64,000 nt of DNA from an uncultured Chloroflexia bacterium (GTDB taxonomy: Bacteria > Chloroflexota > Limnocylindria > Limnocylindrales > CSP1-4), in NCBI GenBank assembly GCA_963819655.1, contig CAWFXA010000002.1:288001-352000 (forward strand). Reading direction: 5' to 3'. The notes beneath the pieces were generated by a model. It did not search any database, had not been told where the DNA came from, and saw nothing but the letters and a program-made list of their open reading frames with translations. This document shows positions 19,226 through 63,576 of this stretch, piece after piece. The position numbers and the translations under genes were made by a program. Position 1 is the first letter of the stretch, and each line of letters starts with the position of its first letter.

Positions 19226-19272
19226 CTCGCCAGCGATGCTAGCAGATGGGGTCTCCCATACGATGACCCCGC

Positions 19273-41774: not shown

Positions 41775-41807
41775 CTCATCTGATCCTTTCGAGGTGGTTC
41801 GCACGCG

Positions 41808-42317: not shown

Positions 42318-42344
42318 CTTGGTAGGCTCCGTTATCTCGCCAGC

Positions 42345-42395
42345 AAGATACTTCCTAGAATGCCTTTCTGTCAAGTATCTTTCTGGTGTGATACT
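42345..42395. promoter_or_regulatory. Probable MarR operator(s) in divergent promoter
   Basis: Inverted repeats AAGATACTT/AAGTATCTT and AGTATC-N10-GATACT. Confidence 0.55.
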
Positions 42396-42418
42396 TTGAG
42401 CCCGGAGGAGCCTACCGA

Positions 42419-42958: not shown

Positions 42959-42988
42959 GAACGAAATGGGCTGGTGGTTGGCCGGTGA

Positions 42989-44203: not shown

Positions 44204-44370
44204 GCGCGTCAGCGTAGCCGCCGCGGGTACGGCCGCGACGTCTACCGAGCGAGCGGGCTACCGCCTGCCGGAGCCGACCTCCAACTGATCGGGGCGGAGC
44301 AACTTCAATCCGACGCGGCCGACGCGTGTGAGCGTCCCTTCGCGCTCCAGCTGGCGCAGGACCCGCCCGG

Positions 44371-48985: not shown

Positions 48986-49131
48986 CGCTCACCTCCCTCG
49001 CCGGGCTGTCCGTGCGCCGGCGTCTCCGTCGCGGGACCAGATCGCGGACCCGTTTCGCGGCCGTGAACTTCCGGGCGCCAGCCGACCGTCAGGTGCGGTC
49101 GTCGCCACCCATCGCGGCGAGGCCGTCGCCA

Positions 49132-49219
49132 GAGTGTGACGCTCTAACGAGCGTTCTGACCACCGAATCCGCGCTCGGCGCGGCGCATGATAGACCTTCA
49201 CACCAGACGCCGAAGCTCC
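49132..49219 (+). repeat. Degenerate right-end module (copy R0), no tRNA fragment
   Basis: GAGTGTGACGCTCTAACGAGCGTT...GAATCCG.GCTCG...TAGACCTTC-N12-GAAGCTCC aligns with 63291-63378. Confidence 0.75.
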
Positions 49220-49251
49220 GGCCGAGTGTGAGCCGGTACGTCCTGAGCGGG

Positions 49252-49908
49252 CTACGCTCCCGATTCCGGCGGCAGGAGCGCTGCGATCATCTGCTCGGCC
49301 GCCAGCTCTCCGAATCGCTCCGCTGACCACCCTCGGCGAATCACGAGCAGCTCGTACAACTCGGGCGCTGTGTAGGTCCACAAGATGTCGCGGGCATCGT
49401 TGAGGGTCAGTTCAGTGCGGATGTCGCCACGCTCGAAGAGCGTGCGCGCGTTTATCTCCATCCGTCGCAGCCGGAGTTCATCCACCTCTGCGACCAGCTC
49501 GGCCATCCGCACATCCGACGCGGCTGCGGCGCGGATCAGCAGCACGACCGGCGTGACACGCGATGCCACTTCCGTGATGAACCCGCCCCAACCTCGGATG
49601 AGACTTCGTGGGTCGCCCTCGGTGGTGCGGATCGCATCCGAACGTTCCTCCGCGGGAACCGGGCCTGCGCCCTCGAGACTCTCCAGCCAGATCGCACGAA
49701 CGAGTCCAGGCTTCCCGCCGAAGGATTTGTAGATCGTTTCAGGGGAGACGCCCGCTGCAGCTGCGATCGCGCCGATCGTCGTCCCGGCATAACCGTGGTC
49801 GAGAAGGAGGCGACGAGCCGCCTCGAGAATGTCTTGGCGGGTCCTGTCCGCCTGCTGACGGCGTCGCCGAGAGTCGTACCGACGACGGTCCTTGACTGGC
49901 TCTGACAT
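49252..49908 (-). CDS. TetR/AcrR family regulator
   Basis: RRYDSRRR and GYAGTTIGAIAAAAGVSPETIYKSFGGK HTH. Confidence 0.92.
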   Translation of the reverse strand: MSEPVKDRRRYDSRRRRQQADRTRQDILEAARRLLLDHGYAGTTIGAIAAAAGVSPETIYKSFGGKPGLVRAIWLESLEGAGPVPAEERSDAIRTTEGDPRSLIRGWGGFITEVASRVTPVVLLIRAAAASDVRMAELVAEVDELRLRRMEINARTLFERGDIRTELTLNDARDILWTYTAPELYELLVIRRGWSAERFGELAAEQMIAALLPPESGA

Positions 49909-49910
49909 TA

Positions 49911-49928
49911 GTTCCAGTATAGTGGAAC
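49911..49928. promoter_or_regulatory. Palindromic operator at the TetR start
   Basis: GTTCCA-GTATAG-TGGAAC just upstream of the ATG. Confidence 0.55.
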
Positions 49929-50250
49929 GATTACACCACGCTGTACGCGTCCGTGGCCCGGCCCGAGAGTCACCCGCACCTGTGGCCGCGACGTGTCGAT
50001 CACCGCGCTCCAGCCGGTCGACATCACTGAATGCGAGCTCGGCGCCCTACCCGGCGAGGATCTGCTCGCCCTCATCCGCAGCTGGGTCCCCGCGAGCACC
50101 CACGATCTGATCGCGACGAGCGTGCTCCTCCGAGCGCACAAGGCGGCCCAGGCAAGGCTCCCCGGCCACAGCCAGGCATGAGCGGCGAGCTCGTCGCTCG
50201 ACGTCGATGTCGGGCCGGGCACATGCTCGGAGTCCTGCTCCCAGCGCCGC

Positions 50251-53200
50251 TCACCCAGCTGTTCGAGCCACCCGATTGAGGGCAGCGAGCGCCCGTTCGT
50301 CGTCGGCGACCACGGCGACGCTGCCCTTGCGGGTGTCGAGCTCGATGGCCTTGCGGACCGCGGCGATAGCCTCGTCGTGGCGACCTGCGGCCTCCTTGAC
50401 GTCGGCGGCCGCCCGCAGCGTCCAGGCATGGAACGTCAGGAAGTCGGTCGTCTCGAAGTACGCAAGCGCCTCGCTGATGGCTGCGTCGGCCTCTGCGTGC
50501 CGCCCCTCCGCCGCCCTGACTCGGGCGACGGACCCGAGGGCCACCGCCCGGAGCCAGCCGCCGCCCTCAAGACCGCGTGCCGCGGCCGACGCCGCGAGGT
50601 CGCGATCCCCGGCAAGCCAGGCATTGCGGGCCAGGAAACCGGCGAGCATCGCGCTCGGCGCGCCCATCTGGTCCGTCTGCTCGAGGCCGTCCTTCAGTAC
50701 CTCCATCGCGGCGCGCGCATCGCCGGCCACCTGCTCGACGTCGGCCGCCAGCTCGGAGAGGAGCGCACGTGATGCCGCCTGGCCAAGCTCGTCGAGGATC
50801 GCGAGGCACTTGGCCGCTAACTCGCGCGCCTCGTCGAAGCGGCCCAGCCGGGCGACGAGGTGGGCCATCGCGTGCCACATCCAGCTCGCGACGGTCGCGC
50901 TGTCAGGCTCGGCCCGGAGGACCTCCTCGCACCGCCGGATGCCGTCCTCGACGGGCGTCGGGCCGGTGTTGAGGACGGCCGACAACTGAAGGTAGCCCAG
51001 CGCAAGCTCGCGCCGCCGGCCGCCGCGACGCGCGTGTTCGATGGCCCGCATCGCGGCCGCCTCCGCTTCGGCCCCGCGGCCAGCCTCCCAGTGACACGCG
51101 GACAGCAGGTCCCACGCGCGGGCCAGACCGACCTCGTCAGCCGCGTTCTCGAACAGCGCGACCGCCTCGTGGGCATCGGCCTCGGCTCGCTCACGGAGCG
51201 GACCGAGCTCGCTGGCTACCCCCCAGTGCTCGACTTTGGCGTGTGCTTCGAGGCGCCTGTCGCCCGAAGCCCGGGCGCCTTCGACGACATCCTCGAGGAT
51301 GGCGTAGGCGCGCGCCAGCTCACCGGTCTCGCCGAGAGCATCGGCGAGCTCGATGGATAACCACGGACGCTCCGGGTCAAGGAGCGGGAGGAGGGCGACG
51401 GTCCGCTCCAGGAGGTTGACGGCGGCCCGCATGTCGCCTCGCGCGACCGCGCGGTGGGCCGCCGAGCCGAGCCGACTCGCGGCGCGCCCTGCGAGGACGG
51501 CCGAGCGGCCGTCGTCCAGACCGAGCTCGACCCGGTTGCGATGGGCCTGCTCGAAGTGATAGCCGACGATCTCCTCGACCTCCCCCAGCCGATCGCCGGT
51601 GGTCTCCGCCAGCCATTCGGCGAAGCGTTCGTGGAGGGCCGCCCGCTCGGTCTTCGCTACCGAATCGTAGGCGGCGTCACGGATGAGGATGTGGCGGAAG
51701 CGGTACACGCCCTCATCGGCGAGGCGTGGCGACTCCGGCCGGATGAGATCCTTGCGCACCAGCGATGTCAGGCAGCCGGCCACCCGGGGACGCTCGGGCT
51801 CGGGCGAGAGGTGGCTCACCGCTCGGTCCTCGAATACCCGGCCGACGATCGAGGCCCGTTCGGCGACCCCTCGTTCCGTCGGATCGAGCCGGTCGAGGCG
51901 TGCGGCCAGAAGCGCCTGGATGTTCGGCGGGATCGGGATGCGGTCGAGTCCGTCGGCGACCCCCCAGCGCTCCCCGTCCGCCGGCCGGATGAAGCCGCCG
52001 TCGACGAGCATCGCGATGAGCTCCTCGAGGTACAGCGGGTTCCCCTCGGCCGCGTCGCTGATCCGGTTGCGCAAGGAGGCAGGCAGCGCGGCTCCCGGGA
52101 CCAGCTGATCGATCAGGACGGTTGCCGCGGACTCGCCCAGTGGCTCGAGCAGGATGGCCGTGGCGTTCAAGCGGCCGCCGCCCCACATGGGACGATCCTC
52201 GAGCAGTTCCGGACGCGCCGAGGCGATGATCAGGACTGCCGATCCGCGGATGAGATCGGCCAGGTGCTCGATGAGGTCGAGCAGGGTCGGCTCGGCCCAA
52301 TGGATGTCGTCGACGATAAGGACGACCGGTCGATCGATCGCGACCCATTCGACCAGCCGGCGGAGCGCCCAGAAGAGCTCCTCCTGGCGAGCCCGACCGG
52401 GCTCGAGCCCGAGGACCTCGGCCAGCCGGCCAGCGATCAGCCGGTCCTCGGGCGCCTCAGGGAGCAGGGCATCGAGCCGGCCGCGCGCGGCGGCCGCGTC
52501 GTCGGTCTCCTTGATCCCCGCCACGGCCCGGACGATCTCGATGACCGGCCAATAGGTGATGCCCTCGCCGTACGGCAGGCAACGGCCGCGCAGGACCGTG
52601 ACCCCGTCCGGCAGGGCGGCGACGAATTCGCGCACGAGCCGGCTCTTGCCGACCCCGGCGGTGCCGAAGATCGTCAGTAGCTGGGCCGTCCGGACGCCAA
52701 CCGCCCGATCGAACACGCCGCGCAGGACGCCGAGCTCAGCATCGCGGGCGACCATCGGCCCGTCGGGTCGACGCGGCTGGTCATCCGCGCCAGGGCGGAT
52801 CGCGATGAGGCGTGCGACGGGGACCGGCTCGATCCGGCCACGGACGGCGAGTGGATCGAGGACCTCGAGCTCGGCGACCTCGCGGACCAGTCGGGTCGTC
52901 TCCGGCCCGAGCAGGATCTCGTCCGGGGCCGCCGCCTGCTCGAGTCGCGCGGCGACGTTTACGGTGTCGCCGGTGACGAGCGTCGGCAGGTCCGGTCCGA
53001 CACCGGCGACCACCGGACCCGTGCAGATGCCGGTCCGAACCCGTAACTCGCTCCCGCGCTCGGCGTTCAAGGTGACAAGCGCCTCACGCATCGCGACCGC
53101 GGCGCGCGCCGCCCGGATGGCGTCGTCCTCGTGGACGGATGGCACGCCGAAGACGGCCATGATGGCATCGCCGATGAACTTCTCGACGGTCCCGCCATAG

Positions 53201-53433
53201 CGCTCGATGACATCGCGCATCGCGGCGAAGTAGTCGGTCATGACGTGGCGGACGGCCTCGGGATCGAGCCGCTCGCCCATCGCCGTCGATCCGACGACGT
53301 CGGCGAACAGCACCGTGACCGTCTTGCGGACCTCACGCGGACGGGGCTCGTCGACCACCAGGCGGGCGCCGCATTCGAGACAGAACTTCGCCTGCTCCGG
53401 GTTGTGCGCCTCGCAGTTCGGGCATGCCCTCAC
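50251..53433 (-). CDS. Class III adenylate/guanylate cyclase with zinc ribbon, AAA/STAND ATPase and TPR domains
   Basis: CPNC..CLECG, LFADVVGST, KFIGDA, GDTVNVAARLE, GTAGVGKS, DDIHWA and GNPLYLEE motifs. Confidence 0.92.
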   Translation of the reverse strand: MRACPNCEAHNPEQAKFCLECGARLVVDEPRPREVRKTVTVLFADVVGSTAMGERLDPEAVRHVMTDYFAAMRDVIERYGGTVEKFIGDAIMAVFGVPSVHEDDAIRAARAAVAMREALVTLNAERGSELRVRTGICTGPVVAGVGPDLPTLVTGDTVNVAARLEQAAAPDEILLGPETTRLVREVAELEVLDPLAVRGRIEPVPVARLIAIRPGADDQPRRPDGPMVARDAELGVLRGVFDRAVGVRTAQLLTIFGTAGVGKSRLVREFVAALPDGVTVLRGRCLPYGEGITYWPVIEIVRAVAGIKETDDAAAARGRLDALLPEAPEDRLIAGRLAEVLGLEPGRARQEELFWALRRLVEWVAIDRPVVLIVDDIHWAEPTLLDLIEHLADLIRGSAVLIIASARPELLEDRPMWGGGRLNATAILLEPLGESAATVLIDQLVPGAALPASLRNRISDAAEGNPLYLEELIAMLVDGGFIRPADGERWGVADGLDRIPIPPNIQALLAARLDRLDPTERGVAERASIVGRVFEDRAVSHLSPEPERPRVAGCLTSLVRKDLIRPESPRLADEGVYRFRHILIRDAAYDSVAKTERAALHERFAEWLAETTGDRLGEVEEIVGYHFEQAHRNRVELGLDDGRSAVLAGRAASRLGSAAHRAVARGDMRAAVNLLERTVALLPLLDPERPWLSIELADALGETGELARAYAILEDVVEGARASGDRRLEAHAKVEHWGVASELGPLRERAEADAHEAVALFENAADEVGLARAWDLLSACHWEAGRGAEAEAAAMRAIEHARRGGRRRELALGYLQLSAVLNTGPTPVEDGIRRCEEVLRAEPDSATVASWMWHAMAHLVARLGRFDEARELAAKCLAILDELGQAASRALLSELAADVEQVAGDARAAMEVLKDGLEQTDQMGAPSAMLAGFLARNAWLAGDRDLAASAAARGLEGGGWLRAVALGSVARVRAAEGRHAEADAAISEALAYFETTDFLTFHAWTLRAAADVKEAAGRHDEAIAAVRKAIELDTRKGSVAVVADDERALAALNRVARTAG

Positions 53434-53823
53434 GGGCCGAGTCTAGGCGCGCTGACCGGGCACCGCGCTAGAGGCTTTCATCCCGAGATGTTCGCGTCAG
53501 GGCCTGACGGCCATTGATCTGTCAAAGGAGCTCCCGGCGCAACGTCCCCACCGAGTTGCGAGGAAGCGCGATATGCGCCCGGTAGATCGCCTTATGGCAG
53601 CAGTCAACGACGGTGATCGCGCCGCCTGGGGAGCCTCCTCCGGGTGGTTGTCACGATGAAGAACGGGATCTGCCACGGATTGCTGCCGCCCCACGCATCG
53701 GCCACCCTCGTAGGTGTTCTGGCCGCCGGCGACCGCTCCGAGTCGGCCAATGCCTCGTCGATGTGGACCTCTTCTTCGACCGTGCCGCCCGCGTCCTCGT
53801 CGAGTTCGAACGGATCGTCGCCA

Positions 53824-53888
53824 GACCGCCTGAGCGTTGTGGCCACCCGAGTGGGACCCCGAGCGAAACGGGTGGAGTTTTACGCTCT
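53824..53888 (+). repeat. Left-end module, copy L1
   Basis: 62/65 nt identical to 59222-59286, with the first 49 nt identical. Confidence 0.9.
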
Positions 53889-54462
53889 AGGATTCCTGCT
53901 CGGCCGTGCGCAGTAGGGCCAGGGCGTTCTGGATGCCCTGCTCCAGGACCTCGTCGGCAAGCTTCTGATCGGACAGGGCGCGGGAGACCTGGAGCGTCCC
54001 GACCATCAGGGCGAAGACGCTGAGGGTCCTGACGCGCGCTGATTGGGGATCTTCCGCTGCCAATCGGGCGGCAGCGTCATCGATGATCGCCAGCTGCCCA
54101 TCGGTGTAGGCGCGCTTCACGGCGTCGGACGAGCGGGCGATCTCGTCGAGGAGCGCGGCCGATGGACAGCCGCCCTCGGTGTCGTCGCGGTGCTGAGGCG
54201 ACAGATAGCCGCTAACGATTTCCTCGAGCGACTGCGTGCTGTATCGCTCGCGCTGCTCGCGGAGCTGGTCCGCGACCGTGCTCGCGACGAGATCCTCCTT
54301 CGAGTCGAAGTGGGCGTAGAAGGCGCCGTTGGTCAGCCCGGCGTCGGCCATGAGCGTCGCCACCCCGGAGCCATCGATGCCGTCGCGCTTGAGCCGACGG
54401 CCTGCCGCCTCGATGATCCGCCCCCGCGTCGCCTGCTTGTGCTCTTTCCCGTACCGCGCCAT
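53887..54462 (-). CDS. TetR/AcrR family regulator
   Basis: AGLTNGAFYAHFDSKEDL and HRD...GCP motifs; the stop codon lies inside the repeat site. Confidence 0.9.
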   Translation of the reverse strand: MARYGKEHKQATRGRIIEAAGRRLKRDGIDGSGVATLMADAGLTNGAFYAHFDSKEDLVASTVADQLREQRERYSTQSLEEIVSGYLSPQHRDDTEGGCPSAALLDEIARSSDAVKRAYTDGQLAIIDDAAARLAAEDPQSARVRTLSVFALMVGTLQVSRALSDQKLADEVLEQGIQNALALLRTAEQES

Positions 54463-54499
54463 CTGCGACTCCCTCATTGGGAAGGGTTCGTCCTTCCTC

Positions 54500-54533
54500 T
54501 TGACATCCATTATATGTCATGCGTAATATTACG
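54500..54533 (+). promoter_or_regulatory. Promoter/operator of the SDR operon
   Basis: TTGACA...TAATAT; palindromes TGACAT-N7-ATGTCA and CGTAATATTACG. Confidence 0.6.
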
Positions 54534-54564
54534 ACCATCAGCCAATTAGCGCAAGGAGTCCACG

Positions 54565-55380
54565 ATGACATCAGCCAAGCCAGTCGCGCTCGTGACGGGC
54601 GCCTCCTCCGGCATCGGGAATGCAGCCGCCCTCGCCCTCGTCACGGCCGGTTTCGAGGTGGTCGGCACGAGCCGGAAGACGTCCGGCGTCGCTCCAGTCG
54701 ACGGCGTCACGTTCCTCGACCTCGACGTGACCAGTGACGAGTCGGTTAGCTCGGCGGTCGGGCGCGTGATCGAGCGGTTCGGGCGGCTCGACGTGCTGGT
54801 CAACAACGCGGGCATCGGGGCAGCCGGGGCCGCCGAAGAAAGCTCCGTCGCCCAGGACCAGCGCGTCTTCGATATCAACTTCTTCGGGCTCGTCCGAATG
54901 ACGAAAGCGGTCCTCCCGCACATGCGCGCGGCCGGAAGGGGTCGGATTATCAGCATCTCCTCGGTGCTCGGGCTCGTCCCCGCTCCGTACATGGCCAGTT
55001 ACGCCGCCACCAAGCACGCGATCGAGGGCTACTCCGAGTCGGTCGACCACGAGGTTCGGGAGCACGGCATCCGCGTGCTTCTCGTCGAGCCCGGCTACAC
55101 GCGGACCGGCTTCGACGCCAACGCCATCCAGCCCGACGCACCGTTGCCGATCTACGCGCTGCAGCGGCACGTCTTCGACGGGGTGTTGGCGCGAGGCATG
55201 GCAGACGGCGATGACCCGGCCATCGTCGCCAAGGCGATCGTCGCGGCGGCGACGGACCCGAAGCCGAAGCTGCGCTACACCGCCGGCCCGGCGGCCGGAC
55301 GCGTCAGCGTCCTGCGCCGCTTCGTTCCCACGCGGGTCTTCGACCGGCAGATCCGGAAGCTCAACCGCCTGCCCGCCTGA
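54565..55380 (+). CDS. SDR family oxidoreductase
   Basis: TGASSGIG, VNNAG and YAATK motifs. Confidence 0.92.
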   Translation: MTSAKPVALVTGASSGIGNAAALALVTAGFEVVGTSRKTSGVAPVDGVTFLDLDVTSDESVSSAVGRVIERFGRLDVLVNNAGIGAAGAAEESSVAQDQRVFDINFFGLVRMTKAVLPHMRAAGRGRIISISSVLGLVPAPYMASYAATKHAIEGYSESVDHEVREHGIRVLLVEPGYTRTGFDANAIQPDAPLPIYALQRHVFDGVLARGMADGDDPAIVAKAIVAAATDPKPKLRYTAGPAAGRVSVLRRFVPTRVFDRQIRKLNRLPA

Positions 55381-55417
55381 AGCCAATCCTCAATCAGCCA
55401 TACCAAGGAGACCCGTC

Positions 55418-56278
55418 ATGAGCACCATGAGCATCGACCCCGTCATCACGTCCTACGCGATGGCGCCGGCCCTCACCATCACCGCAGGCGACGCGACCTA
55501 CGCCTATCGCGAGCTCGGACCGAAGGGCGGGATCCCCGTGATCCTCTTTGTCCACCTTGCTGCGACCCTCGACAACTGGGACCCGCGCATCGTCGACCCC
55601 ATCGCCAGAGAGCACCATGTCATCGCATTCGACAACCGCGGCGTCGGCGCCTCCACCGGCCAGGTTCCCGACAGCGTCGAAGCGATGGCCGACGACGCCT
55701 ACGCCTTCATCCGCGCGCTCGGCTTCGACGAGGTCGACATCTTCGCCTTCTCCCTCGGCGGCTTCGTCGCCCAGGCTCTCGTGATCAAGCACCCGGATCT
55801 GGTCCGCAAGTTGGTCCTCACCGGGACCGGCCCTGCCGGAGGGAAGGACATCGACAAGGTCGCCGGCATCACCTACTGGGACATGTTGCGCGCGGCCCTG
55901 ACCCGGTCGGACCCGAAGGAGTTCCTGTTCTTCAACCGCAACGCCACCGGCAAGCCCGCCGCCCGCGCCTTCGTCAACCGACTCACGGAGCGCACCGTCG
56001 ACCGGGACGCCGCGATCTCGGTGAAGGCTTTCCAGACCCAGCTCAAGGCGATCAAGAAGTGGGGTCGCTCGGCCCCTGCCGACCTGTCGAAGGTCACCCA
56101 GCCCACCTTGATCGCCAACGGCGACAACGACCGGATGGTGCCCTCCGTGCTATCCGAGGACCTGCACCGCCGCATCCGCGGCTCCGAGCTCGTGATCTAC
56201 CCCGACTCCGGCCACGGCGGCATCTTCCAGTTCCACGACACCTTCGTCCCGGTCGCCGTCGAGTTCCTCGACCGCTGA
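55418..56278 (+). CDS. Alpha/beta fold hydrolase
   Basis: FDNRGVG, AFSLGG, GDNDRMVP and YPDSGHG motifs. Confidence 0.9.
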   Translation: MSTMSIDPVITSYAMAPALTITAGDATYAYRELGPKGGIPVILFVHLAATLDNWDPRIVDPIAREHHVIAFDNRGVGASTGQVPDSVEAMADDAYAFIRALGFDEVDIFAFSLGGFVAQALVIKHPDLVRKLVLTGTGPAGGKDIDKVAGITYWDMLRAALTRSDPKEFLFFNRNATGKPAARAFVNRLTERTVDRDAAISVKAFQTQLKAIKKWGRSAPADLSKVTQPTLIANGDNDRMVPSVLSEDLHRRIRGSELVIYPDSGHGGIFQFHDTFVPVAVEFLDR

Positions 56279-56305
56279 CCGCACCCTACGAAGGAAGGCA
56301 AGAAG

Positions 56306-57100: not shown

Positions 57101-57167
57101 CGGCGCGCCCCGGTCCCGAGCTCCGGGCCACGACGCACGGTGCGATCAGGTGGAGTGCCGGTCATCG

Positions 57168-58011
57168 TCAGGCCTCCGCCACGTCGAGCGAGACGAAGCG
57201 CTCGCGGTTGAAGTCGATGTCGGCCTGCAGGTCGGCGACCTTCTGCTCGGTGGAAGCGATCGAGTCGGCGCCGGCGATGAACCGGCGTCGCGGCGGCTCC
57301 TCGCTGGCGATCGTCACGAGCGCCTGGGCGAGCTTGGCCGGGTCGCCTGACTGGCGGCCATTCTGGGAGGTCCACCAGTCGATCTGGGCAGCGCGTCGCT
57401 CGGCGTAGTCGTCGATCGACAGTTGGGCGAAGTTCGTCGACTCAGGCGTCAGCAGCTCGGTCCGGAAGAAGCCGGGATTGACGATCGTGGTGTGGATGCC
57501 GAACGGCTGCGACCTCCGGCCGCAACGACTCCATCCAGCCCTCGATCCCGAACTTGGACGCCGCGTAGGCCGTCCCGAACTCGAAGCCGGAAAGCCCCGC
57601 GCTCGAGGAGATCGTGATGACGTGACCGGATCGCTGCCGGCGCATCACGGGCAGGACGGCGCGGGTGACGTTCATCGGGCCGATGAGCGTCGTCGCGAGC
57701 TGGCGCTCCATCTGCTCCGGCGTCAGCTCCTCGAAGAAGCCGGCGTTGAAGTTGCCGGCGTTGTTGACGAGGACATCGATCCGCCCGAATCGCTCGACCG
57801 CGGCCTGGACCGCGGCCAAGGCGTCGGCGGGGCTGGTCACGTCGAGCCTCACGGCGAGCAGGTCGGCAGGGTCGCCGACCGCCTTCGTCACCGCCTCAGG
57901 GTTGCGGCCCGTCGCGACCACGGAATTGCTGGCGGCCAGCGCGGCCTTGGCGATGTCGACGCCCATGCCGCGCCCGGCACCCGTGATGAACCAGACCTTC
58001 CTTTCGGTCAT
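57168..58011 (-). CDS. SDR family oxidoreductase, frameshifted
   Basis: WFITGAGRGMG, NNAG and YAASKFG motifs; C-terminus continues in another frame (PGFFRT, PGDPAKLA). Confidence 0.88.
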
Positions 58012-58149
58012 CGGAAATCTCCTTTACGTGGTGGTTTGACCTTCTGCGGGCCATCCAACCACCCGCCATCCCGGTCGGAAAGGCACGCGTTATCGGGGTA
58101 TTGCTGATGCCTGCCTACCAGCGCACGAGGGGCGTAGGGTGGGCGTGAC

Positions 58150-59032
58150 GTGAGCAGCGCCGACGAGATCCGCGAGTTCCTGACGACGCGCCGGGCGAAG
58201 CTGTCCCCCGAGCGCGCCAGCGTGCCGAGGTATGGCCGCAAGCGGCGAGTGCCCGGCCTGCGGCGCGAAGAGGTCGCCCTCCGCGCCGGGATCAGCGTCG
58301 AGTGGTACACGCGCCTGGAGCGCGGCGTCGCGCGGGGCGTCTCCGATGAAGTCCTCGACGCCATCGGCAGCGCGCTCCAGCTCGACGAGGCCGAGCGCGC
58401 CCACCTCGCGGATCTCGTGCGCACCGCGAACGCGGAGCGGCCGCCACGACGAACCTCGACCCCGCAGGGCGTGCGTCCGAGCCTCGCCCGGCATCGTCGA
58501 TGTGATGGGCCCGATCCCGTCCTGCGTGACGAACGGTCGGCTCGACGTCCTCTACGCGAACGATCTCGCGGAGGCGCTCTTCTCGGATGTCTTCCGTGAC
58601 CCCGTCCGCCCGCCCAACTTCGCCCGCTTCGTGTTCCTCGATCCACGAGCGAGGACGTTCTACCGCGACTGGGAGAAAGCTGCCAATGACACCGTCGCAG
58701 TGCTGCGCGCGGCGGCCGGCCGGGACCCGTACGACCGCAGCCTGTCCGACCTGGTCGGGCAGCTCTCGACGCGGAGCGACGAGTTCCGGGTCCGCTGGGC
58801 GGCGCACGATGTCGCGTTCCATCGCACGGCCACCAAGCACATGCACCATCCGCTCGTGGGCGACCTGACCCTCGCCTTCGAGATGCTCGAGCTCCCAGCC
58901 GATCCGGGGCTGTCGGTGCTCATCTACTCCGCCGAGCCCGGCTCACCGTCTGAAGAGGCCATGCGCGAGCTGGCGCGCTGGAGCGAGACGCGGACCAAGC
59001 TCTCGGCAGCTCGGGCCGGATCCGAGACCTGA
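58150..59032 (+). CDS. XRE/MmyB-like HTH regulator, frameshifted
   Basis: RRVPGLRREEVA, YTRLERG, NFARFVFLDP and HHPLVGDLTL motifs. Confidence 0.9.
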
Positions 59033-59063
59033 CCCAGCACGCCGGGCCATCTCGATGCCCGCA

Positions 59064-59180
59064 GAGTTTTACGCTCTAGGAGCGATGTGGCGGCCAAGGC
59101 GTGTGGGCAATGCCTCGGAATAGACCTACAAACCAAAGCCGACGGTCGAGCCGCGCTCAGCAGGTATCATCGCGGTCCGC
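59064..59180 (+). repeat. Right-end module, copy R1 (includes -10 box TATCAT)
   Basis: Aligns with 63291-63409: GAGTTTTACGCTCTA.GAGCG.TGTGGC, TAGACCT...GCCGA.GGTC and GGTAT.AT. Confidence 0.8.
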
Positions 59181-59220
59181 GCGCCTGTAGCTCAGGGGAT
59201 AGAGCGTCGCCTCCGGAGCC
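59181..59220 (+). pseudogene. 5' half of tRNA-Arg(CCG), att-like remnant
   Basis: GCGCCTGTAGCTCAGGGGATAGAGCGTCG-CCTCCGGAGCC matches 63410-63450 with 1 substitution and 1 gap; it stops 3 nt after the anticodon loop. Confidence 0.9.
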
Positions 59221-59221
59221 T

Positions 59222-59286
59222 GACCGCCTGAGCGTTGTGGCCACCCGAGTGGGACCCCGAGCGAAACGGGCTGAGTCTTACGCTCT
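59222..59286 (+). repeat. Left-end module, copy L2
   Basis: Near-identical to 53824-53888; directly follows the tRNA fragment. Confidence 0.9.
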
Positions 59287-59328
59287 GTGCGGAAGACCAC
59301 GGTGCAAGGAGTGGGCTCGCGCTCGGCT

Positions 59329-61614
59329 TCAAGGCGCTCGTCCTCGGTCTGCGAGCGAGTAGAGCCGGATGACTCCATCGCGTCCGGTCGTGTATGCGTC
59401 GCCATTGGGCCCGATCACAGCCAGCTCGAGGCCGCGTCCTGACCACGATGAGATGAGGTCACCAGTGGGGGCGAACAGGTGCAGCCGATCGGGCCCGTCC
59501 GTCGCGTACAGTTCGCCATTCGGCCCGGAAGCAAGCAGCACCGGCTCGCGCAGAAGACCCTCTCCGATCTGTCGGACGATCGTGCCGTCCGGGGCGATCA
59601 CCGTGATCCTCCAGGGTGCCCCGCGACCGCCACTGGCGAAATAGACCGTTCCGTCGGGACCCACGACCACGTTGTTCGTGCACCGATCCCTGACGTCCGC
59701 GCCTCCCGCCAATGTCCGAACGTAGTTGCCTGATTGTTCGAAAACCTGGATCCGGCACGTGGGGTCGTCAACCACATAGACGAGCCCGTCCGGGCCAACA
59801 CTGATGCCGAAGGGACTGACGAACTGGCCGGGCCCTGACCCGAAGGTTCCCCATGACCCGATCATCTCTCGGTCGGCATCGAAGTGCACGACCCGCTGGT
59901 GCTCCGAATCGGCAATGAAGAAGCCGCCATCCGGGAGGAAGGCAACTGCACCCCAGCCATCCCGGTCGGGCTGGACGAGGGCGAGGGCGGCATCACCGGT
60001 CGGCTGCCATGTTTCGACGACTCCTCCGTCACGACCGACGATCACGAACCGGGCACGTGTGGGGTCGGCGATCCACAGCCGCCCGTCTGGTGCGCCGTTC
60101 AGGAAGAACGGCCCCTCGATCCCAAGATCTCGGGCCGTGCGGGCCCACACCTCAACGAGTGCAACGGTCGAGGTGATGATGTGCGCCGACGACGATGGGC
60201 GCTCGGCCGTCGCACTGGAAGCGACCCCTGCGGTGGGCGACGGACTGCTGGCACGAGCTTCGGCGGCGGTCAGCGCGTACACACTCCCATCCTGTGTTCC
60301 AACGATCAGGTGCGCGCCGGCGACTGCGGGCGAGAAGGGGATGCCGTCGAGTAGGAAGGTCCCGAGGACGTCGCCGGTGGCCGCCTCGAGGGCCTCGATC
60401 CCCCCGTGCGAGGCGAGGTACAGCACTCCACCAGCCTTGGTCGGCGATGAGCCGACCTGAACGCCGAGGCTTCGTGTCCATATCTCGGCACCGTCGTCGG
60501 CCCGGAGCGCGACCACGTCGCCGTCGACCGCGGCTGCGTAGACGGTCCCCGTCTCGGGGTCGACGACCGGAGCGACGACTGTCTGTCCGTTTGGCCGCCG
60601 GTGACGCCATATCCCACGGCCGGATTCGAGATCGACCGCGTAGAGAACGCCGCGATTCCCTTCGAGATCAAGGCCTGCGAGCAGGACCTTCTCGCCAGCG
60701 ATGACGGGTGTATCGGTGAAGACCGGCGTCGCAAAGCGCCACAACTCGCGTGCGGTTGGGGAGTCGAAGGCCACGGCGATCCCGACATCGGTCGGGACGA
60801 CGAGGATCGAACCCTGGACCGCGATCGACCGCGTCGAGGGCCCCGGCAGGTCTTCCTGCCAGACGACCTCGTGCGTTTCGAGATCGATGGCCAGAACCTT
60901 GCCGGTCGCGCCCGGGACGGGTCGTCCACGGGACTGTGCCGAAGAGGTCGAGACGTACAGCCGGTCGCCGACGATCGCCGGACTACCGGCAGCGTAGCCA
61001 TCGAGCGGTATTTGCCAGGCGACATGGCCAGTCCGTCGATCCACGGCGACGAGATCCCGATCCTCCGTCCCGACGATCACCAACTCACCGGCCACAGAAG
61101 GCGACGACCAGGCAACGTTCAGATCGGACGACCACAGCTGGACGTGGCGTCGGAGGTCGAACGCTCGGAACTGGCCATCGATCGCTCCCACGTAGGCGAC
61201 GCCGTCCACGATCGCCGCCGACGATACGATCGGACCGGAGAGCGTCGTCTGGAAGTCGATGGTCATGGCCCCACCGGGTCCGGGCCCCGTTACCACGCCG
61301 GTCCTTGCCGCGTCACCGCGGAACGTCGAGCTGTCCGACAGGGGCTCCGATCTCCGGAGGAGCTGGGCGCCCACCGCGGCGATGCCGGCCAAGAGCGACA
61401 TCAGGAGGAGGGCGGTCATCGCCAGCCGGACGGGTCGCGGCAATGCGACGACCTTCGCCATGATCCGGCTTTCGAGCGGGGCGGGCTGCTGCGGGGTGAG
61501 GCGGACCGCGGCCGCGATGGAGTCGCGCAGATCTGCAGGTGCCAGCGTCGCCTGGGGCAGTGCCAGAGATCGGTTCAGCAGCTCCCGTGTCAACGGCGGA
61601 AGGTTCCGGCTCAT
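59329..61614 (-). CDS. Membrane-anchored PQQ-like/BamB beta-propeller plus NHL-repeat protein (putative anti-sigma/sensor)
   Basis: Short N-terminal domain, TM helix, FRGDAARTG, repeated A.D..TG..W blades, then WGTFGSGPGQFVSPFGI. Confidence 0.85.
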   Translation of the reverse strand: MSRNLPPLTRELLNRSLALPQATLAPADLRDSIAAAVRLTPQQPAPLESRIMAKVVALPRPVRLAMTALLLMSLLAGIAAVGAQLLRRSEPLSDSSTFRGDAARTGVVTGPGPGGAMTIDFQTTLSGPIVSSAAIVDGVAYVGAIDGQFRAFDLRRHVQLWSSDLNVAWSSPSVAGELVIVGTEDRDLVAVDRRTGHVAWQIPLDGYAAGSPAIVGDRLYVSTSSAQSRGRPVPGATGKVLAIDLETHEVVWQEDLPGPSTRSIAVQGSILVVPTDVGIAVAFDSPTARELWRFATPVFTDTPVIAGEKVLLAGLDLEGNRGVLYAVDLESGRGIWRHRRPNGQTVVAPVVDPETGTVYAAAVDGDVVALRADDGAEIWTRSLGVQVGSSPTKAGGVLYLASHGGIEALEAATGDVLGTFLLDGIPFSPAVAGAHLIVGTQDGSVYALTAAEARASSPSPTAGVASSATAERPSSSAHIITSTVALVEVWARTARDLGIEGPFFLNGAPDGRLWIADPTRARFVIVGRDGGVVETWQPTGDAALALVQPDRDGWGAVAFLPDGGFFIADSEHQRVVHFDADREMIGSWGTFGSGPGQFVSPFGISVGPDGLVYVVDDPTCRIQVFEQSGNYVRTLAGGADVRDRCTNNVVVGPDGTVYFASGGRGAPWRITVIAPDGTIVRQIGEGLLREPVLLASGPNGELYATDGPDRLHLFAPTGDLISSWSGRGLELAVIGPNGDAYTTGRDGVIRLYSLADRGRAP

Positions 61615-62183
61615 TCCGACACCTCCCGGAGCGCCTTCGCGAGGGCTCGGCGCGCACTGAAGAGACGCCACATGACCGTCCCCGAAGGGACGCGAAGGAG
61701 ATTCGCGATCTCGGCGACCGGTCGGCCTTCGCCGTGATGCAAGGCGAGCACGGTTCGCTGGTCGCCGGACAACCGGCCGAATGCCTGGCGGACGATGTCC
61801 TCGTCGGCCAGCGCTTCGAGAGGCGACTGGCTTGTCGGATGGTCGGCCGGAAGCGAGAGCTCCTCGATCGGGATCTCCCGGACCCGGGCCTTTCGGCGCC
61901 GGAGCAGCATCCGGCACTCGTTCACGACGATCCGATCGAGCCACGCATCGAAGCGCGCGACATCACGGAGTCGAGGGAGTTCTCGCCAGGCTGCCAAGAA
62001 CGCCTCCTGGCATGCGTCGCGGGCGTCCCATTCAGTTCGCAGGATGGCCAGAGCCGTGCGATAGGCTCGGTCGAGCCGAGCGTCGATCAACCGTTCGAAT
62101 GCCTGCACATCGCCGGCGCGGGCCAACTCGACGAGCGAGGCGTCGCTCGTCGAGCCGACCGAGGTGCTCGCGTGTGCCGTCAT
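61611..62183 (-). CDS. ECF-type RNA polymerase sigma factor
   Basis: GDVQAFERL, DARDACQEAF, FDAWLDRIVVNEC and EIANLLRVPSGTV.WRLFSAR motifs. Confidence 0.92.
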   Translation of the reverse strand: MTAHASTSVGSTSDASLVELARAGDVQAFERLIDARLDRAYRTALAILRTEWDARDACQEAFLAAWRELPRLRDVARFDAWLDRIVVNECRMLLRRRKARVREIPIEELSLPADHPTSQSPLEALADEDIVRQAFGRLSGDQRTVLALHHGEGRPVAEIANLLRVPSGTVMWRLFSARRALAKALREVSE

Positions 62184-62244
62184 CGGGTTGCAGTGTGCCC
62201 TCGACGGACGGGTCAGCCGGCGAACAATGGGCAGAGAGCGGAGG

Positions 62245-63105
62245 TCATGGCAACTCCAACAGTCCGGCGACGGCAGGCCATGTGATCTCTGCGACCTCCG
62301 CCTGTCCGCGCACGTTCAGGTGGTTCCGATCGCTGGAGAAATCCTCGGGGCGTTCAATGTACGCGGCGCGAGCTCCGTCGTCCGTCCGGCAATTGGGCAC
62401 CGTGGCGCACACCCGGGCCTGCTCCGTCTCATATTTCTCGATGATGGATGTCAGGGTGTCGGAAGGGTCAGGGTCGCACAGCATCCACGAAGGGGGTCGT
62501 CCGAGCTGTCCGACCACCAGGATCCGTGAGTCGGGTGAGGCCGTGGTTACGACCTGCAAGGCGTCTGCGAGGGCGACACCGAACTCGGGTACGTGCGTGC
62601 GATCGGTCCCGTCGCAGCGGATGTCGCTGTCGATCGTTTGGACTACGACGAGTGCCGGGGTGGGAACAGTTTCGAGAGCGGATCGCGCCTGCCCCGCCAG
62701 CGAAGACGCGGGCGCACCACCTTGCGCAGTGTTGGCAACATGGCCCTCGGTCTCCGGACGGACCGCGACGAGCCGCCGGTAGATGCTGTTGACCTCAGGC
62801 GATGTGCCAGTCGCCCACGAGTTTTCGAGCGCAACCCGACCAGGACGGCTCGGATCGGAGTTCTCACCAGTCAAGCCGGAGTGCCCGATCGCTATGACAC
62901 CGACCGGCTTGCCGGGGTTGGCCGCGGTCGCGGTCGATGTGGCGGCCGGGCCGGCCGCGGCCGATGTGGTAGCCGGGCCGGTCGCGGCCGATGTGGTGGC
63001 CGGGCCGGTCGCGGCCTGGTCTCCGATGTCTGCACTGCGGCAGCCACTGACCGCCAACGCCAAGGCGATGATGGCGGCCACGGTGCCAGCTGATCTTGTG
63101 TTCAT
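62245..63105 (-). CDS. SGNH/GDSL hydrolase-like lipoprotein
   Basis: GGAG RBS, VSGC lipobox, IGHSGLTG (block I-like) and DRNHLN (DxxH). Confidence 0.75.
   Translation of the reverse strand: MNTRSAGTVAAIIALALAVSGCRSADIGDQAATGPATTSAATGPATTSAAAGPAATSTATAANPGKPVGVIAIGHSGLTGENSDPSRPGRVALENSWATGTSPEVNSIYRRLVAVRPETEGHVANTAQGGAPASSLAGQARSALETVPTPALVVVQTIDSDIRCDGTDRTHVPEFGVALADALQVVTTASPDSRILVVGQLGRPPSWMLCDPDPSDTLTSIIEKYETEQARVCATVPNCRTDDGARAAYIERPEDFSSDRNHLNVRGQAEVAEITWPAVAGLLELP
62926..63016 (-). repeat. 27-bp tandem repeat x3.4 encoding an AATGPATTS linker
   Basis: Units start at 62926, 62953, 62980 and 63007 (partial). Confidence 0.85.
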
Positions 63106-63290
63106 GATGTGCTCCGGGGTAGTCCGGATGTGCATCCTTTGCCTCCTGATCGGGTCTCTGCATTCGCAGAGTTCCTTCAGAAGTCCAGATGCGAGGGAGC
63201 ACCGATCCATTTGGCGCTCCTCTGTAAGAAACACGTGCGCCGAGTTGTCGCCGTACGTGCTCCCTCCGCTCGGACCGTTCGGCCGCCGGC

Positions 63291-63409
63291 GAGTTTTACG
63301 CTCTACGAGCGTTGTGGCCGCGGAATCCGTGCTCGCCGCAGCGGCAAGGTAGACCTTCGAACCACAGGCCGAAGGTCCATCCAAGCTCGGCGGGTATGAT
63401 CAGCGCCTC
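63291..63409 (+). repeat. Right-end module, copy R2 (tRNA promoter region, -10 TATGAT)
   Basis: Homologous to 59064-59180 and 49132-49219; contains the inverted repeat GACCTTCG-N10-CGAAGGTC. Confidence 0.8.
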
Positions 63410-63485
63410 GCGCCTGTAGCTCAGTGGATAGAGCGTCGGCCTCCGGAGCCGAAGGTCGCAGGTTCGAATCCTGTCGGGCGCGCCA
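63410..63485 (+). tRNA. tRNA-Arg (CCG)
   Basis: 76-nt cloverleaf, anticodon loop CTCCGGA, GTTCGAATCC, encoded CCA. Confidence 0.97.
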
Positions 63486-63576
63486 GTTCAACCTTTTCGG
63501 GCAGAGCCAGCGCCAATCCGTGCGCGTAGGCCGCCTGAGTCAGCCGGACACCCACGATCTCGGGTGCCAGCGACCG

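What the first reader, a model, noticed from the sequence alone, without database searches (positions are those of the whole stretch)
49132..63485. Tandem array of integrase-less gene cassettes stacked on the 5' side of tRNA-Arg(CCG)
Seen: the region is modular, in the order R0(49132) - cargo - L1(53824) - cargo - R1(59064) + tRNA 5' half - L2(59222) - cargo - R2(63291) + intact tRNA. L1 and L2 are 62/65 identical and the three R copies are clear homologs, while the cargos are unrelated (cyclase+TetR; SDR/hydrolase operon; ECF sigma+propeller+SGNH). No tyrosine or serine recombinase or transposase is recognisable in the window. Known: integrative elements commonly target tRNAs and usually duplicate the 3' end. 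Inference: these are small non-autonomous cassettes with standard ends. Each supplies a new promoter and tRNA 5' half, and they accumulate sequentially using a recombinase supplied in trans. This would be an integron-like gene-capture platform anchored on a tRNA.
Basis: partly seen in the sequence, partly recalled or inferred. Interest (0 to 1): 0.88.

Follow-up and report, generated by a model that had tools for sequence, protein, structure and literature searches.

The report
Integrase-less island array upstream of tRNA-Arg
Several small gene packets without a recombinase of their own are stacked upstream of a tRNA-Arg gene, each carrying a replacement promoter and front half for that tRNA, which is a mirror-image and unusually cassette-like form of ordinary genomic-island integration.

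Summary
tRNA-Arg(CCG) lies at 63410-63485. A copy of its 5' half lies at 59181-59220. There are two L modules (53820-53888 and 59218-59286, 65/69 identical) and three R modules, and all occur only at this locus in the genome.

L and R are best read as the two arms of an attP site. A Xer-like tyrosine integrase family recombines in the anticodon loop, and its elements carry the tRNA promoter and 5' half rather than the usual 3' end. Relatives supply:
- an empty site (G137);
- attL junctions (G122, G075);
- two integrase-bearing elements at the same tRNA (G071, G147);
- seven further family members at other tRNAs, all with displaced 5' halves.

At least 19 of 131 genomes of the genus carry such junctions, with up to four units per array, and more than 120 metagenome contigs carry them too. 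Cargo varies widely. Only 1 of 23 array segments, and 0 of 80 metagenome loci, encodes the integrase. This genome has no cognate integrase.

The finding is therefore tandem accretion of integrase-less (CIME-like) islets in the rare 5' orientation. Whether the units move with an integrase supplied in trans, as in integrons, is open (about 0.4). R0-cyclase-L1 is not a cassette. I rate it a new variant of a known kind.

The parts
49132..49236 (+). R0: relic of an R module (A.B motif, hairpin H, part of the promoter region). It has no tRNA half. It is shared with relative G122 as older context.
   Evidence: 79-80% identical to R2. Present at the same place in G122.
49252..49908 (-). TetR-family regulator. 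The ~750-bp segment holding it is absent from G122.
   Evidence: PF00440, 7e-16. Indeed an indel against G122.
50251..53433 (-). Large zinc-ribbon, adenylate/guanylate cyclase, AAA_16 and TPR regulator. It forms the left flank of the array and is shared with G122 at 96.6-98%.
   Evidence: Pfam. Synteny.
53820..53888 (+). L1: P' arm of attP. An attL remnant whose tRNA half and native promoter have been deleted.
   Evidence: 65/69 identical to L2. In G122 the homologous L follows a 5' half.
53887..57100 (.). Cargo of unit 'cargo2': TetR (53887-54510 -), SDR (54565-55380 +), alpha/beta hydrolase (ORF 55211-56278 +) and an unknown 264-aa ORF (56306-57100 +).
   Evidence: Pfam. The same unit is 94% identical in G122 and 91% in G123, and there it lies next to the tRNA.
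57106..59063 (.). Extra segment fused to cargo2 in this genome only: truncated SDR (57442-58011 -) and MmyB-like regulator (58232-59032 +). The junction that should separate two units is missing.
   Evidence: Absent after cargo2 in G122, G057 and metagenome locus L163. Adjacent but inverted in G024.
59064..59180 (+). R1: P arm (A.B motif at 59066), hairpin H and a displaced tRNA promoter region (..GGTATCATCG..).
   Evidence: 77% identical to R2 over 164 nt. Sequence read.
59181..59220 (+). Displaced 5' half of tRNA-Arg(CCG), nt 1-41, with 1 substitution and 1 deletion. It ends in the anticodon stem-loop, the presumed crossover core.
   Evidence: The break falls at the same point in all displaced halves read in the related arrays.
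59221..59286 (+). L2: P' arm with conserved blocks YGAGCGYWGTG .. GAGYGGRAYCC .. GCGAAAC .. GGGTTTTACGCTCT. Homology ends sharply after the A motif.
   Evidence: Alignment of 22 distinct L modules.
59329..63384 (-). Cargo of unit 'cargo3': PQQ/NHL beta-propeller protein (59329-61944), ECF sigma factor (61611-62183) and a weak GDSL/SGNH-like ORF (62245-63384).
   Evidence: Pfam. The whole unit is 96.2% identical to the G057 unit.
63291..63409 (+). R2: P arm (A.B at 63293), hairpin H and the promoter region now serving the tRNA (..GGGTATGATCAGCG..).
   Evidence: 96.6% identical to the R of the same unit in G057.
63410..63485 (+). Intact tRNA-Arg(CCG), single copy in the genome. Its 5' 41 nt belong to the last unit and its 3' part to the chromosome.
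   Evidence: ARAGORN. Rfam, 72 bits.

Best explanation
Window 53820-63485 is a tandem array of at least two small integrative islets that lack an integrase. They are L1-cargo2(+extra)-R1 and L2-cargo3-R2. They sit at the single tRNA-Arg(CCG) gene.

The array was built by serial site-specific recombination in the anticodon stem-loop. The enzyme belongs to a Xer-like tyrosine integrase family whose elements carry the tRNA promoter and the first ~41 nt of the tRNA, instead of the usual 3' end.

In the circular form of a unit, attP reads R (P arm: A.B motif, hairpin, promoter), then the 5' half (core), then L (P' arm: B..A). Integration pushes the resident promoter and 5' half to the left. These are then followed by L. 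The incoming R and 5' half are left driving the intact tRNA.

The A motif (GTTTTACGCTCT) lies at the outer edge of both arms. It is probably an arm-type integrase-binding site, which would explain the sharp 'standard ends' around unrelated cargo.

Shown:
- the anatomy of attB, attL, attR and the attP-like internal junctions;
- the integrase family and its association with tRNA 5' sides;
- cargo variation;
- that R travels with the unit to its left.

Inferred:
- the crossover lies in the anticodon loop;
- A and B are arm sites;
- R contains the working promoter.

This genome has no cognate integrase, so the array is at present fixed. The units resemble cis-mobilizable elements (CIMEs). Because nearly all units lack an integrase, and leave no remnant of one, I put about 0.4 on their being propagated as non-autonomous cassettes by an integrase supplied in trans or in cis. 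The rest goes to trapped relics.
For: (1) Break point. In all displaced halves read in the related arrays, the 5' copy ends after ..CCTCCGGAGCC and is followed by an L module.

(2) Empty site. G137 has orfN, the hairpin, the GGGTATCATCG promoter and an intact tRNA, with no A.B motif and no L. G122 and G075 have the same orfN and promoter, followed by 5' half|L, which is attL.

(3) Integrase.
- G071 carries a 330-aa PF00589 protein (4.8e-31) whose start lies ~30 nt from the A.B motif and which is divergent from the tRNA.
- G147 carries a 74%-identical integrase in a 9.9-kb element with the same A.B..A R arm and a B..A L arm.
- R181, K205, H272, R275, W298 and Y307 are invariant in 8/8 aligned members.

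(4) Family habit.
- 10 of 12 genus loci have a tRNA divergent from the integrase start, 130-230 bp away.
- 7 of 7 loci examined further have displaced 5' halves that stop at nt 38-41 and no 3' duplicate. In two of them the displaced copies also differ from the tRNA in the D loop.
- 42 of 80 loci from species representatives across Chloroflexota and Actinomycetota have the divergent arrangement.

(5) Spread.
- 19 of 131 genomes of the genus have a 5' half+L junction.
- Arrays hold up to 4 units (G095).
- At least 120 metagenome contigs match the junction pattern.

(6) R goes with its unit. R2 is 96.6% identical in the same unit in G057. The tRNA-proximal R of G122, which belongs to cargo2, is different and reappears behind cargo2 in G057.

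(7) Lack of integrase.
- The family HMM hits 1 of 23 array segments.
- It hits 0 of 80 metagenome loci. By my count about 55 junctions or tRNAs there have at least 1.3 kb of left flank.
- No mobility gene was found in the 30 cargo ORFs scanned.

(8) A motif. Allowing one mismatch, it occurs exactly four times in 48000-64000, always on the + strand and always at a cargo edge.
Against: - No integrase of this family is found in G000 at E<=1e-20. The best matches are Xer-like proteins of 26-28% identity, and no recombinase lies in the window. Only 1 of the 19 genomes with arrays has a cognate integrase at the locus.
- No recombination was observed. Laid metagenome contigs gave only one weak 'goes back' joint (63443 to 59213, one contig, depth 6.6), which an array junction in another strain would also give. 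No circular contig was proven.
- The E. coli-type promoter scan finds nothing in R, so promoter function is inferred only from the conserved TATCAT/TATGAT hexamer.
- The array shows decay. The displaced half carries 2 changes, L1 has lost its half, cargo2 is fused to an extra segment, and R0 is a relic that is not explained.
- Three of about 20 R modules show no A motif within 130 nt (G024, G013, G016).
- The closest relatives (rpoB region 97-98% identical) share units at 94-96%. Vertical descent explains much of that sharing.
Confidence: 0.82

Rival explanations
1. Active, integron-like cassette system. The units are born and spread without an integrase. An integrase acting in trans, or in cis from a neighbouring driver element, excises any unit as a circle with a complete attP (R-5'half-L) and inserts it at the tRNA. 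The tRNA locus then works as a gene-capture platform.
For: - 22 of 23 array segments and 80 of 80 metagenome loci lack the integrase, and none shows a remnant down to E=10 or 1e-3 respectively.
- Units are small: 0.95-7.4 kb, including a 1.2-kb single-gene EamA unit.
- Cargo diversity is very large. Only about 4 of 80 metagenome loci share cargo with G000.
- The arms end sharply at the A motif.
- Between G000 and G057 the cargo3 unit is 96.2% identical, yet the end of the neighbouring cargo2 unit is only 84% identical, against 97% for rpoB.
- G071 shows an integrase-less unit joined to an integrase-bearing one.
- A minimal 2.5-kb unit holding little besides the integrase exists at tRNA-Gly(CCC) in G128.
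Against: - There is no resident integrase at the platform, and none of this family in G000.
- Genomes with arrays are not clearly enriched for family integrases: 7 of 19 against 34 of 112, counted by me.
- No circular junction was shown.
- No route between cells is known. The 27.7-kb integrase-bearing element showed no phage or conjugation genes in the 9 ORFs scanned.
- The junction pattern has 0 hits in viral contigs.
Confidence: 0.4
2. Trapped relics. Each unit arrived as an autonomous integrase-bearing island and later lost the integrase by deletion. What remains is inert and vertically inherited, and it is reshuffled only by deletion and homologous recombination between the repeated arms.
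For: - Signs of decay and rearrangement are present in G000.
- Integrase pseudogenes with internal stops exist at other tRNA loci of the genus.
- Sharing of units follows close kinship (G122, G057).
- The CIME literature describes exactly this route (PMC5704250, passages read).
Against: It requires clean loss of a ~1-kb gene that starts 30 nt from the A.B motif, with the motif kept, in most of about 20 units and with no remnant in any. Integrase-less units outnumber integrase-bearing ones about 38 to 1 among complete units.
Confidence: 0.4
3. Not site-specific at all. The pattern would come from local tandem duplication of the tRNA upstream region, or from an assembly chimera at a repeat.
For: The repeats are short, and metagenome assemblers do break at them. 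For example, a laid contig starts exactly at 59218.
Against: - The cargos between the repeats are unrelated.
- The same junctions recur in 19 genomes, including contigs over 1 Mb, and in at least 120 metagenome contigs.
- The same unit is assembled independently in G057.
- Empty-site and attL alleles exist.
Confidence: 0.02

Closest known systems
Genomic islands with a 5' tDNA fragment (Islander class; first described by Zhao & Williams 2002, J Bacteriol 184:859)
   Same: A tyrosine integrase acts at an anticodon-centred site. The element restores the 5' part of the tRNA gene, so it must bring a promoter. The fragment is displaced upstream in direct orientation. Islander Table 1 lists 159 of 3919 islands with a 5' fragment and 125 tandems (PMC4383910, passages read). 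PMC6563490'-distal recombination 'considerably less frequent' (passage read).
   Different: Islander accepts a tandem member only if it has its own integrase, whereas here nearly all units lack one. The units are very small (about 1-7 kb) and occur up to four in a row. I could not read the Zhao & Williams paper itself, which is not held. I know it only from its title and from citations.
CIMEs and site-specific accretion (ICESt1-type elements of streptococci; Streptomyces pathogenicity islands)
   Same: Elements that lack integration and transfer genes but keep attL and attR, stacked in tandem with later arrivals at a tRNA gene and movable in cis with an integrase-bearing neighbour (PMC5704250, passage read). 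G071 shows such a tandem.
   Different: CIMEs are described as decayed ICEs or IMEs at the 3' end of the target. Here the 5' end is used. No conjugation genes were seen in either kind of unit. Integrase-less units are the overwhelming majority and show no remnants of the integrase.
Integrons (IntI, attI, attC cassettes)
   Same: Small units of one to a few genes with standard ends and no recombinase of their own, stacked in order of arrival at one site.
   Different: No platform integrase or attI is present. The ends are duplex arm-type sequences, not folded attC hairpins. The cargos carry their own regulators and lie on both strands. Each unit also rebuilds a tRNA gene. This comparison rests on my recalled knowledge of integron features.
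IMEX elements at dif, and the ssrA-specific islands of Dehalococcoides
   Same: Tandem arrays of elements that re-use one chromosomal site. IMEX elements lack their own recombinase and use Xer (recalled; arrays cited in PMC6563490). The Dehalococcoides islands are another case in Chloroflexota (PMC3146451; only the listing and start of the abstract seen).
   Different: The target here is a tRNA anticodon loop, not dif or the 3' end of ssrA. The integrase is encoded by an element and is only Xer-like, with 26-28% identity to the genome's own Xer-like genes.

Membership tests
tRNA-targeting tyrosine-integrase island (5'-fragment class) | Intact tDNA plus a displaced cognate fragment in direct orientation on the correct side | tested here: met
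   5' half at 59181-59220, upstream of the tRNA at 63410-63485 and on the same strand.
tRNA-targeting tyrosine-integrase island (5'-fragment class) | An integrase gene inside the island | tested here: not met
   No PF00589 or PF00239 match in the window. The family HMM finds none in the G000 units. The feature is met only in relatives G071 and G147.
tRNA-targeting tyrosine-integrase island (5'-fragment class) | An unoccupied target (attB) in relatives that differs by the insertion only | tested here: met
   G137 has orfN, promoter and intact tRNA. G122 and G075 have orfN, promoter and 5' half|L.
tRNA-targeting tyrosine-integrase island (5'-fragment class) | Catalytic R-K-H-R-(H/W)-Y residues in the cognate integrase | tested here: met
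   R181, K205, H272, R275, W298 and Y307 are invariant in 8/8. PF00589, 4.8e-31. Which columns form the catalytic set is recalled.
CIME (cis-mobilizable element) | No integration or transfer genes, but attL and attR retained | tested here: met
   for gene content. for both att ends of unit L2..R2.
CIME (cis-mobilizable element) | Derived by decay of an ICE or IME | tested here: inconclusive
   No integrase remnant in 22 integrase-less segments. No conjugation genes in the 9 ORFs scanned of the integrase-bearing G071 unit.
CIME (cis-mobilizable element) | Mobilised in cis after accretion with an integrase-bearing element | not testable with these tools
   Only the structural tandem in G071 is seen.
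Integron | Platform with intI next to attI | tested here: not met
   No recombinase at or near the array in G000, nor in the arrays of G095, G122, G024 and G075.
Integron | Cassette ends are attC sites that act as folded single-strand hairpins | tested here: not met
   22 L modules are conserved as sequence blocks. RNAalifold gives -2.6 kcal/mol with only a 5-bp closing stem. The single-sequence fold has z = -1.03.
Integron | Mostly promoterless single ORFs in one orientation, read from Pc | tested here: not met
   The units hold 1-5 genes on both strands with their own regulators, namely TetR and ECF sigma.

The most novel reading that the evidence does not exclude
A tRNA-anchored gene-capture system parallel to integrons. 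Cassettes of 1-7 kb carry no integrase. Their only mobile equipment is an attP made of a tRNA promoter, the tRNA 5' half and two arm modules. They are excised as circles and captured one after another at tRNA-Arg(CCG), and at other tRNAs, by a Xer-like integrase supplied in trans or by a minimal driver element. Each capture also swaps the promoter of the tRNA. This would be widespread in soil Chloroflexota and possibly in Actinomycetota.
Probability: 0.4. Interest if true: 0.8.

Novelty: new variant of a known kind. Interest (0 to 1): 0.6.

Why it matters
- Island finders that demand an integrase in every unit, as Islander's rules do, would miss these arrays. Yet they occur in at least 19 of 131 genomes of one genus and in more than 120 metagenome contigs. 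They carry mostly regulators (ECF sigma/anti-sigma pairs, large STAND-type regulators) and accessory enzymes.
- In this integrase family, integration into the 5' side of tRNA genes is not rare. The divergent arrangement is seen in 42 of 80 loci.
- The family offers a compact, well-defined att system of about 230 bp plus a 330-aa integrase that can be tested at the bench.
- If the units prove to move with an integrase supplied in trans, this would be a second, independent way of stacking cassettes at a fixed site. It would have the added feature that every insertion replaces the promoter of the host's only tRNA-Arg(CCG) gene.

Tried and rejected
- Rfam. Scans of 48800-64000 (E-value mode) and 1-48800 (gathering mode) found only the two tRNAs. 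L and R are not a known RNA family.
- RNA folding. The fold of 5' half + L is not better than shuffles (z = -1.03). RNAalifold on 22 L modules gave no supported structure. I dropped the ideas that L is a terminator or an attC-like hairpin.
- Promoter and terminator scan of 58950-63560: nothing found. It uses E. coli-type consensus only and is uninformative for this phylum.
- Sequencing runs. 24 runs were listed and none holds half of the words. Laying four of them gave short soil and rhizosphere contigs from mixed organisms. Most 'joints' between 59205 and 63455 are other tRNA genes. One contig joins 63443 back to 59213, which cannot be told apart from an array junction in another strain. I take no verdict on excision or expression from this.
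- Viral contigs have 0 hits for the junction pattern. Phage and plasmid collections hold only distant integrase relatives, at most 35% and 31% identical.
- Terminal-overlap test on the metagenome loci. Only L184 (1289 nt) begins and ends in the same 43 nt, which are the tRNA half itself. This is not proof of a circle.
- Baseline identity using window 1-20000 was unusable, because few and partly duplicated matches came back. I used the rpoB region instead.
- I considered that direct A repeats might flank the integrase and delete it. There is no A motif between cargo and integrase in G071, so I rejected this.
- I considered the genome's own integrases as helpers. The two on C2 lie within a conventional 3'-type island at tRNA-Thr(CGT). 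They are not cognate.
- R0 and the 195 nt at 53625-53819 remain unexplained.
The Zhao & Williams paper is not held. Supplements were not consulted, and the supplementary tables of PMC6563490 may list further 5'-type cases.

Full report
**1. What is in the window.**

ARAGORN places tRNA-Arg(CCG) at 63410-63485 on the + strand. It is the only gene for this tRNA among 50 tRNAs in the 3.49-Mb, three-contig genome. A copy of its first ~41 nt lies at 59181-59220. The copy has one substitution and one 1-nt deletion, and it stops after ..CCTCCGGAGCC, just beyond the anticodon loop.

Directly behind the copy comes L2 (to 59286). L2 is 65/69 identical to L1 at 53820-53888. The ~120 nt before the half (R1, 59064-59180) match the ~120 nt before the intact tRNA (R2, 63291-63409) at 77%. 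A third, shorter homolog (R0) lies at 49132-~49236. BLAST of all modules against the whole genome finds them only here, apart from other tRNA genes.

The SGNH assignment is weak. No PF00589 or PF00239 match lies in the window.

**2. Fine structure of the modules.**

R starts with an A motif (GAGTTTTACGCTCTA) abutting a B motif (GAGCGTTGTGGCC). Then come a 10-bp-stem hairpin (TAGACCTTCG..CGAAGGTCTA) and a conserved GGGTAT(C/G)ATC stretch 9-15 nt before the tRNA. L starts with B and ends with A.

Allowing one mismatch, the 11-nt core of A occurs four times in 48000-64000, at 53877, 59066, 59275 and 63293. All four are on the + strand and all sit exactly at a cargo edge.

An alignment of 22 distinct L modules from relatives shows conserved sequence blocks and a sharp end of homology after A. 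It shows no supported secondary structure: RNAalifold gives -2.6 kcal/mol and a single-sequence fold gives z = -1.03. Rfam knows neither module.

**3. The same architecture in relatives.**

A search of the 131 genomes of the genus with R1-half-L2 finds the half+L junction in 19 of them. I fetched 20 stretches of relatives' DNA. In the arrays read there, every displaced half breaks at the same nucleotide. It is followed either by the rest of the tRNA or by an L module.

Arrays hold one to four units of 1.2-27.7 kb. The cargos are mostly unrelated, but some units recur:
- The G000 unit L2..R2 is 96.2% identical over its whole 4.19 kb to the G057 unit.
- The first 3.29 kb after L1 equals the tRNA-proximal unit of G122 (94%) and of G123 (91%, with a deletion).
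- G024 and G125 share a unit, and so do G094 and G122.

The junction pattern also hits at least 120 metagenome contigs. Of the 80 returned, only about 4 share cargo with G000.

**4. attB, attL and the extent of the array.**

G137 has a small gene (orfN), the hairpin, the GGGTATCATCG stretch and an intact tRNA. It has no A.B motif and no L, so it is an empty site. G122 and G075 have the same orfN and promoter, followed by 5' half|L, which is attL.

G122 is a close relative (rpoB region 98% identical). Reading left to right, its locus holds the transporter, R0, the cyclase, orfN, promoter+half|L, a 4.4-kb unit, R-half|L, cargo2 and R-tRNA.

It follows that R0 and the cyclase are older context shared by both genomes. 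G000 has lost orfN, the attL half and the first unit. The TetR gene at 49252-49908 is an indel next to R0. R0..L1 is not a cassette, and I cannot explain R0.

In G000, cargo2 runs straight into an extra segment (57106-59063). In G122, G057 and metagenome locus L163, an R-half-L junction follows cargo2 instead. L1..R1 therefore looks like two units fused by loss of their junction.

**5. The recombinase.**

G071 has a 27.7-kb unit next to the tRNA. Its last gene is a 330-aa tyrosine recombinase (PF00589 4.8e-31, with a weak SAM-like N-domain). It is divergent from the tRNA and starts ~30 nt from the A.B motif. The other ORFs scanned in that unit encode corrinoid-methyltransferase-type functions and two transposases. 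None encodes a phage or conjugation function.

Homologs occur in 41 of 131 genomes. Of 12 loci fetched, 10 have a tRNA divergent from the integrase start: Arg-CCG, Gly-TCC, Lys-CTT, Met-CAT, Leu-TAG and Pro-TGG.

For seven more members I fetched up to 40 kb. All seven have displaced 5' halves of the adjacent tRNA that stop at nt 38-41, and none has a 3' duplicate. In the Pro-TGG locus of G116 the two displaced copies also differ from the tRNA in the D loop. Three of the seven have two halves, and the distal units lack the integrase. Their arms share B-like (GAGCGYTGTG) and A-like (AGTT(T/A)NCGCT) blocks.

A scan of species-representative genomes with the family alignment kept 80 loci, mostly from Chloroflexota MAGs (titled Limnocylindrales or 'Chloroflexia') and Actinomycetota. 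Of these, 42 have the divergent (5') arrangement. About 20 have a tRNA co-directional just upstream, the usual 3' arrangement. Thirteen have no tRNA in reach.

One locus, in G147, has an integrase 74% identical to that of G071. It sits next to tRNA-Arg(CCG) in a 9.9-kb element with the same A.B..A R arm and a B..A L arm. The residues R, K, H-x-x-R, W and Y are invariant in 8/8 aligned members.

**6. Reading.**

The simplest account is classical. R-5'half-L is an attP, the anticodon stem-loop is the core, and A and B are arm-type sites. Integration displaces the resident promoter and 5' half.

R belongs to the unit on its left. R2 is 96.6% identical in the same unit in G057. G122, whose last unit is cargo2, has a different R before its tRNA, and that R type follows cargo2 in G057.

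Promoter activity itself is inferred. The consensus scan finds nothing.

**7. How integrase-less units arise and move is open.**

A family HMM finds the integrase in 1 of 23 array segments and in 0 of 80 metagenome loci. By my count from the table, about 55 junctions or tRNAs there have at least 1.3 kb of left flank. No remnant of the gene appears in any of them. Eighteen complete metagenome units measure 0.95-5.5 kb, and one genome unit is a single EamA gene of 1.2 kb.

The cargos are ECF sigma factors with propeller proteins, large AAA/TPR regulators with LuxR, BTAD or cyclase domains, hydrolases, and a LacI-ABC-amylase set. No mobility gene appears in 30 ORFs.

Between G000 and G057 the cargo3 unit is 96.2% identical, while the end of the neighbouring cargo2 unit is 84% identical, against 97% for rpoB.

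These points favour a class of non-autonomous units. Any such unit, once excised between two cores, would carry a complete attP.

Against this:
- G000 has no family integrase, and 18 of the 19 genomes with arrays have none at the locus.
- Arrays and family integrases are not clearly associated (7/19 against 34/112).
- The array shows decay.
- No circle was seen.
- The pattern used selects G000-like L arms, and short contigs favour small units.

I put about 0.4 on trans or cis mobilisation and about 0.4 on trapped relics.

**8. Comparison with what is known.**

Recombination with the 5'-distal part of tRNA genes is known but uncommon. PMC6563490 calls it 'considerably less frequent' and cites Zhao & Williams 2002 (passage). 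Islander lists 159 of 3919 islands with a 5' fragment, 125 tandems of two or more and 4 of three or more, and requires an integrase in each member (passages).

Integrase-less elements that keep attL and attR and accrete with later arrivals are known as CIMEs (PMC5704250, passage).

The integron comparison fails on three defining features (see the membership test). I found no description of arrays of integrase-less units on the 5' side of tRNA genes in the searches. These were few and keyword-bound, so they do not show absence from print.

**Verdict.** The feature is real and recurrent. It is best filed as a new variant of tRNA-targeted island accretion, with an open and testable possibility of cassette-like mobility.

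Noticed in passing
G000 contig C3:494406-498652 (outside the window): A second 5'-type unit in the same genome. A displaced 5' half of tRNA-Val(GAC) ends after the anticodon loop, 4.2 kb upstream of the intact gene. No tyrosine recombinase lies nearby.
   Followed up: partly
G000 C2:721870-738755, and C3:3292 with C1:9064/25332/31516 (outside the window): Conventional 3'-type islands. A 3' half copy of tRNA-Thr(CGT) lies 16.8 kb from the gene, with two PF00589 genes between them. There are three 3' half copies of tRNA-Gln(CTG) across contig ends, next to a split integrase.
   Followed up: no
window 63486-64000 and on to about 65391 in C2: The ~1.9 kb downstream of the tRNA, including a TetR gene at 63577-64299(-), is 92-98% identical in G012, G020, G019 and G122, although G020 is only 88% identical in rpoB. 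G020 and G019 have a tRNA-Arg(CCG) with a different anticodon stem (TTGGG/CCCAA) at this place.
   Followed up: partly
L029 (G024:C2:606000-618000) 3678-8311: The cargo2 genes (TetR, hydrolase, 264-aa ORF) and the 'extra' segment (inverted) lie 230 nt downstream of a tRNA-Thr(CGT) gene in G024. They are 87-91% identical and have no L, R or tRNA fragment nearby. The same genes are cassette cargo in some species and ordinary neighbours in another.
   Followed up: partly
L026 (G125:C5:1902000-1915000) 3867-9905: An odd arrangement. An intact tRNA-Arg(CCG) comes first, then a unit 92% identical to the G024 unit, then R + 5' half followed by ~75 unrelated nt and a tRNA 3' piece. It is not explained.
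   Followed up: no
window 62925-63016: Three overlapping copies of a 27-nt period repeat (87-92% identical) inside the weak SGNH-like ORF (family D2).
   Followed up: no
window 13468-15148 and 16855-20000: Two stretches that are not rRNA are 92-96% identical to two separate places each in G122, and 75-90% identical in G123, G020 and G012. Little else of window 1-13000 matched. This may be another mobile or duplicated segment.
   Followed up: no
window 40700-44371: A 3.7-kb stretch is absent from the otherwise syntenic G122 contig.
   Followed up: no
L047/L048 (G128:C4:978600-1018599): A minimal 2.5-kb unit at tRNA-Gly(CCC) consists of little more than the integrase and its att arms. It could act as a 'driver' for integrase-less units.
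   Followed up: partly
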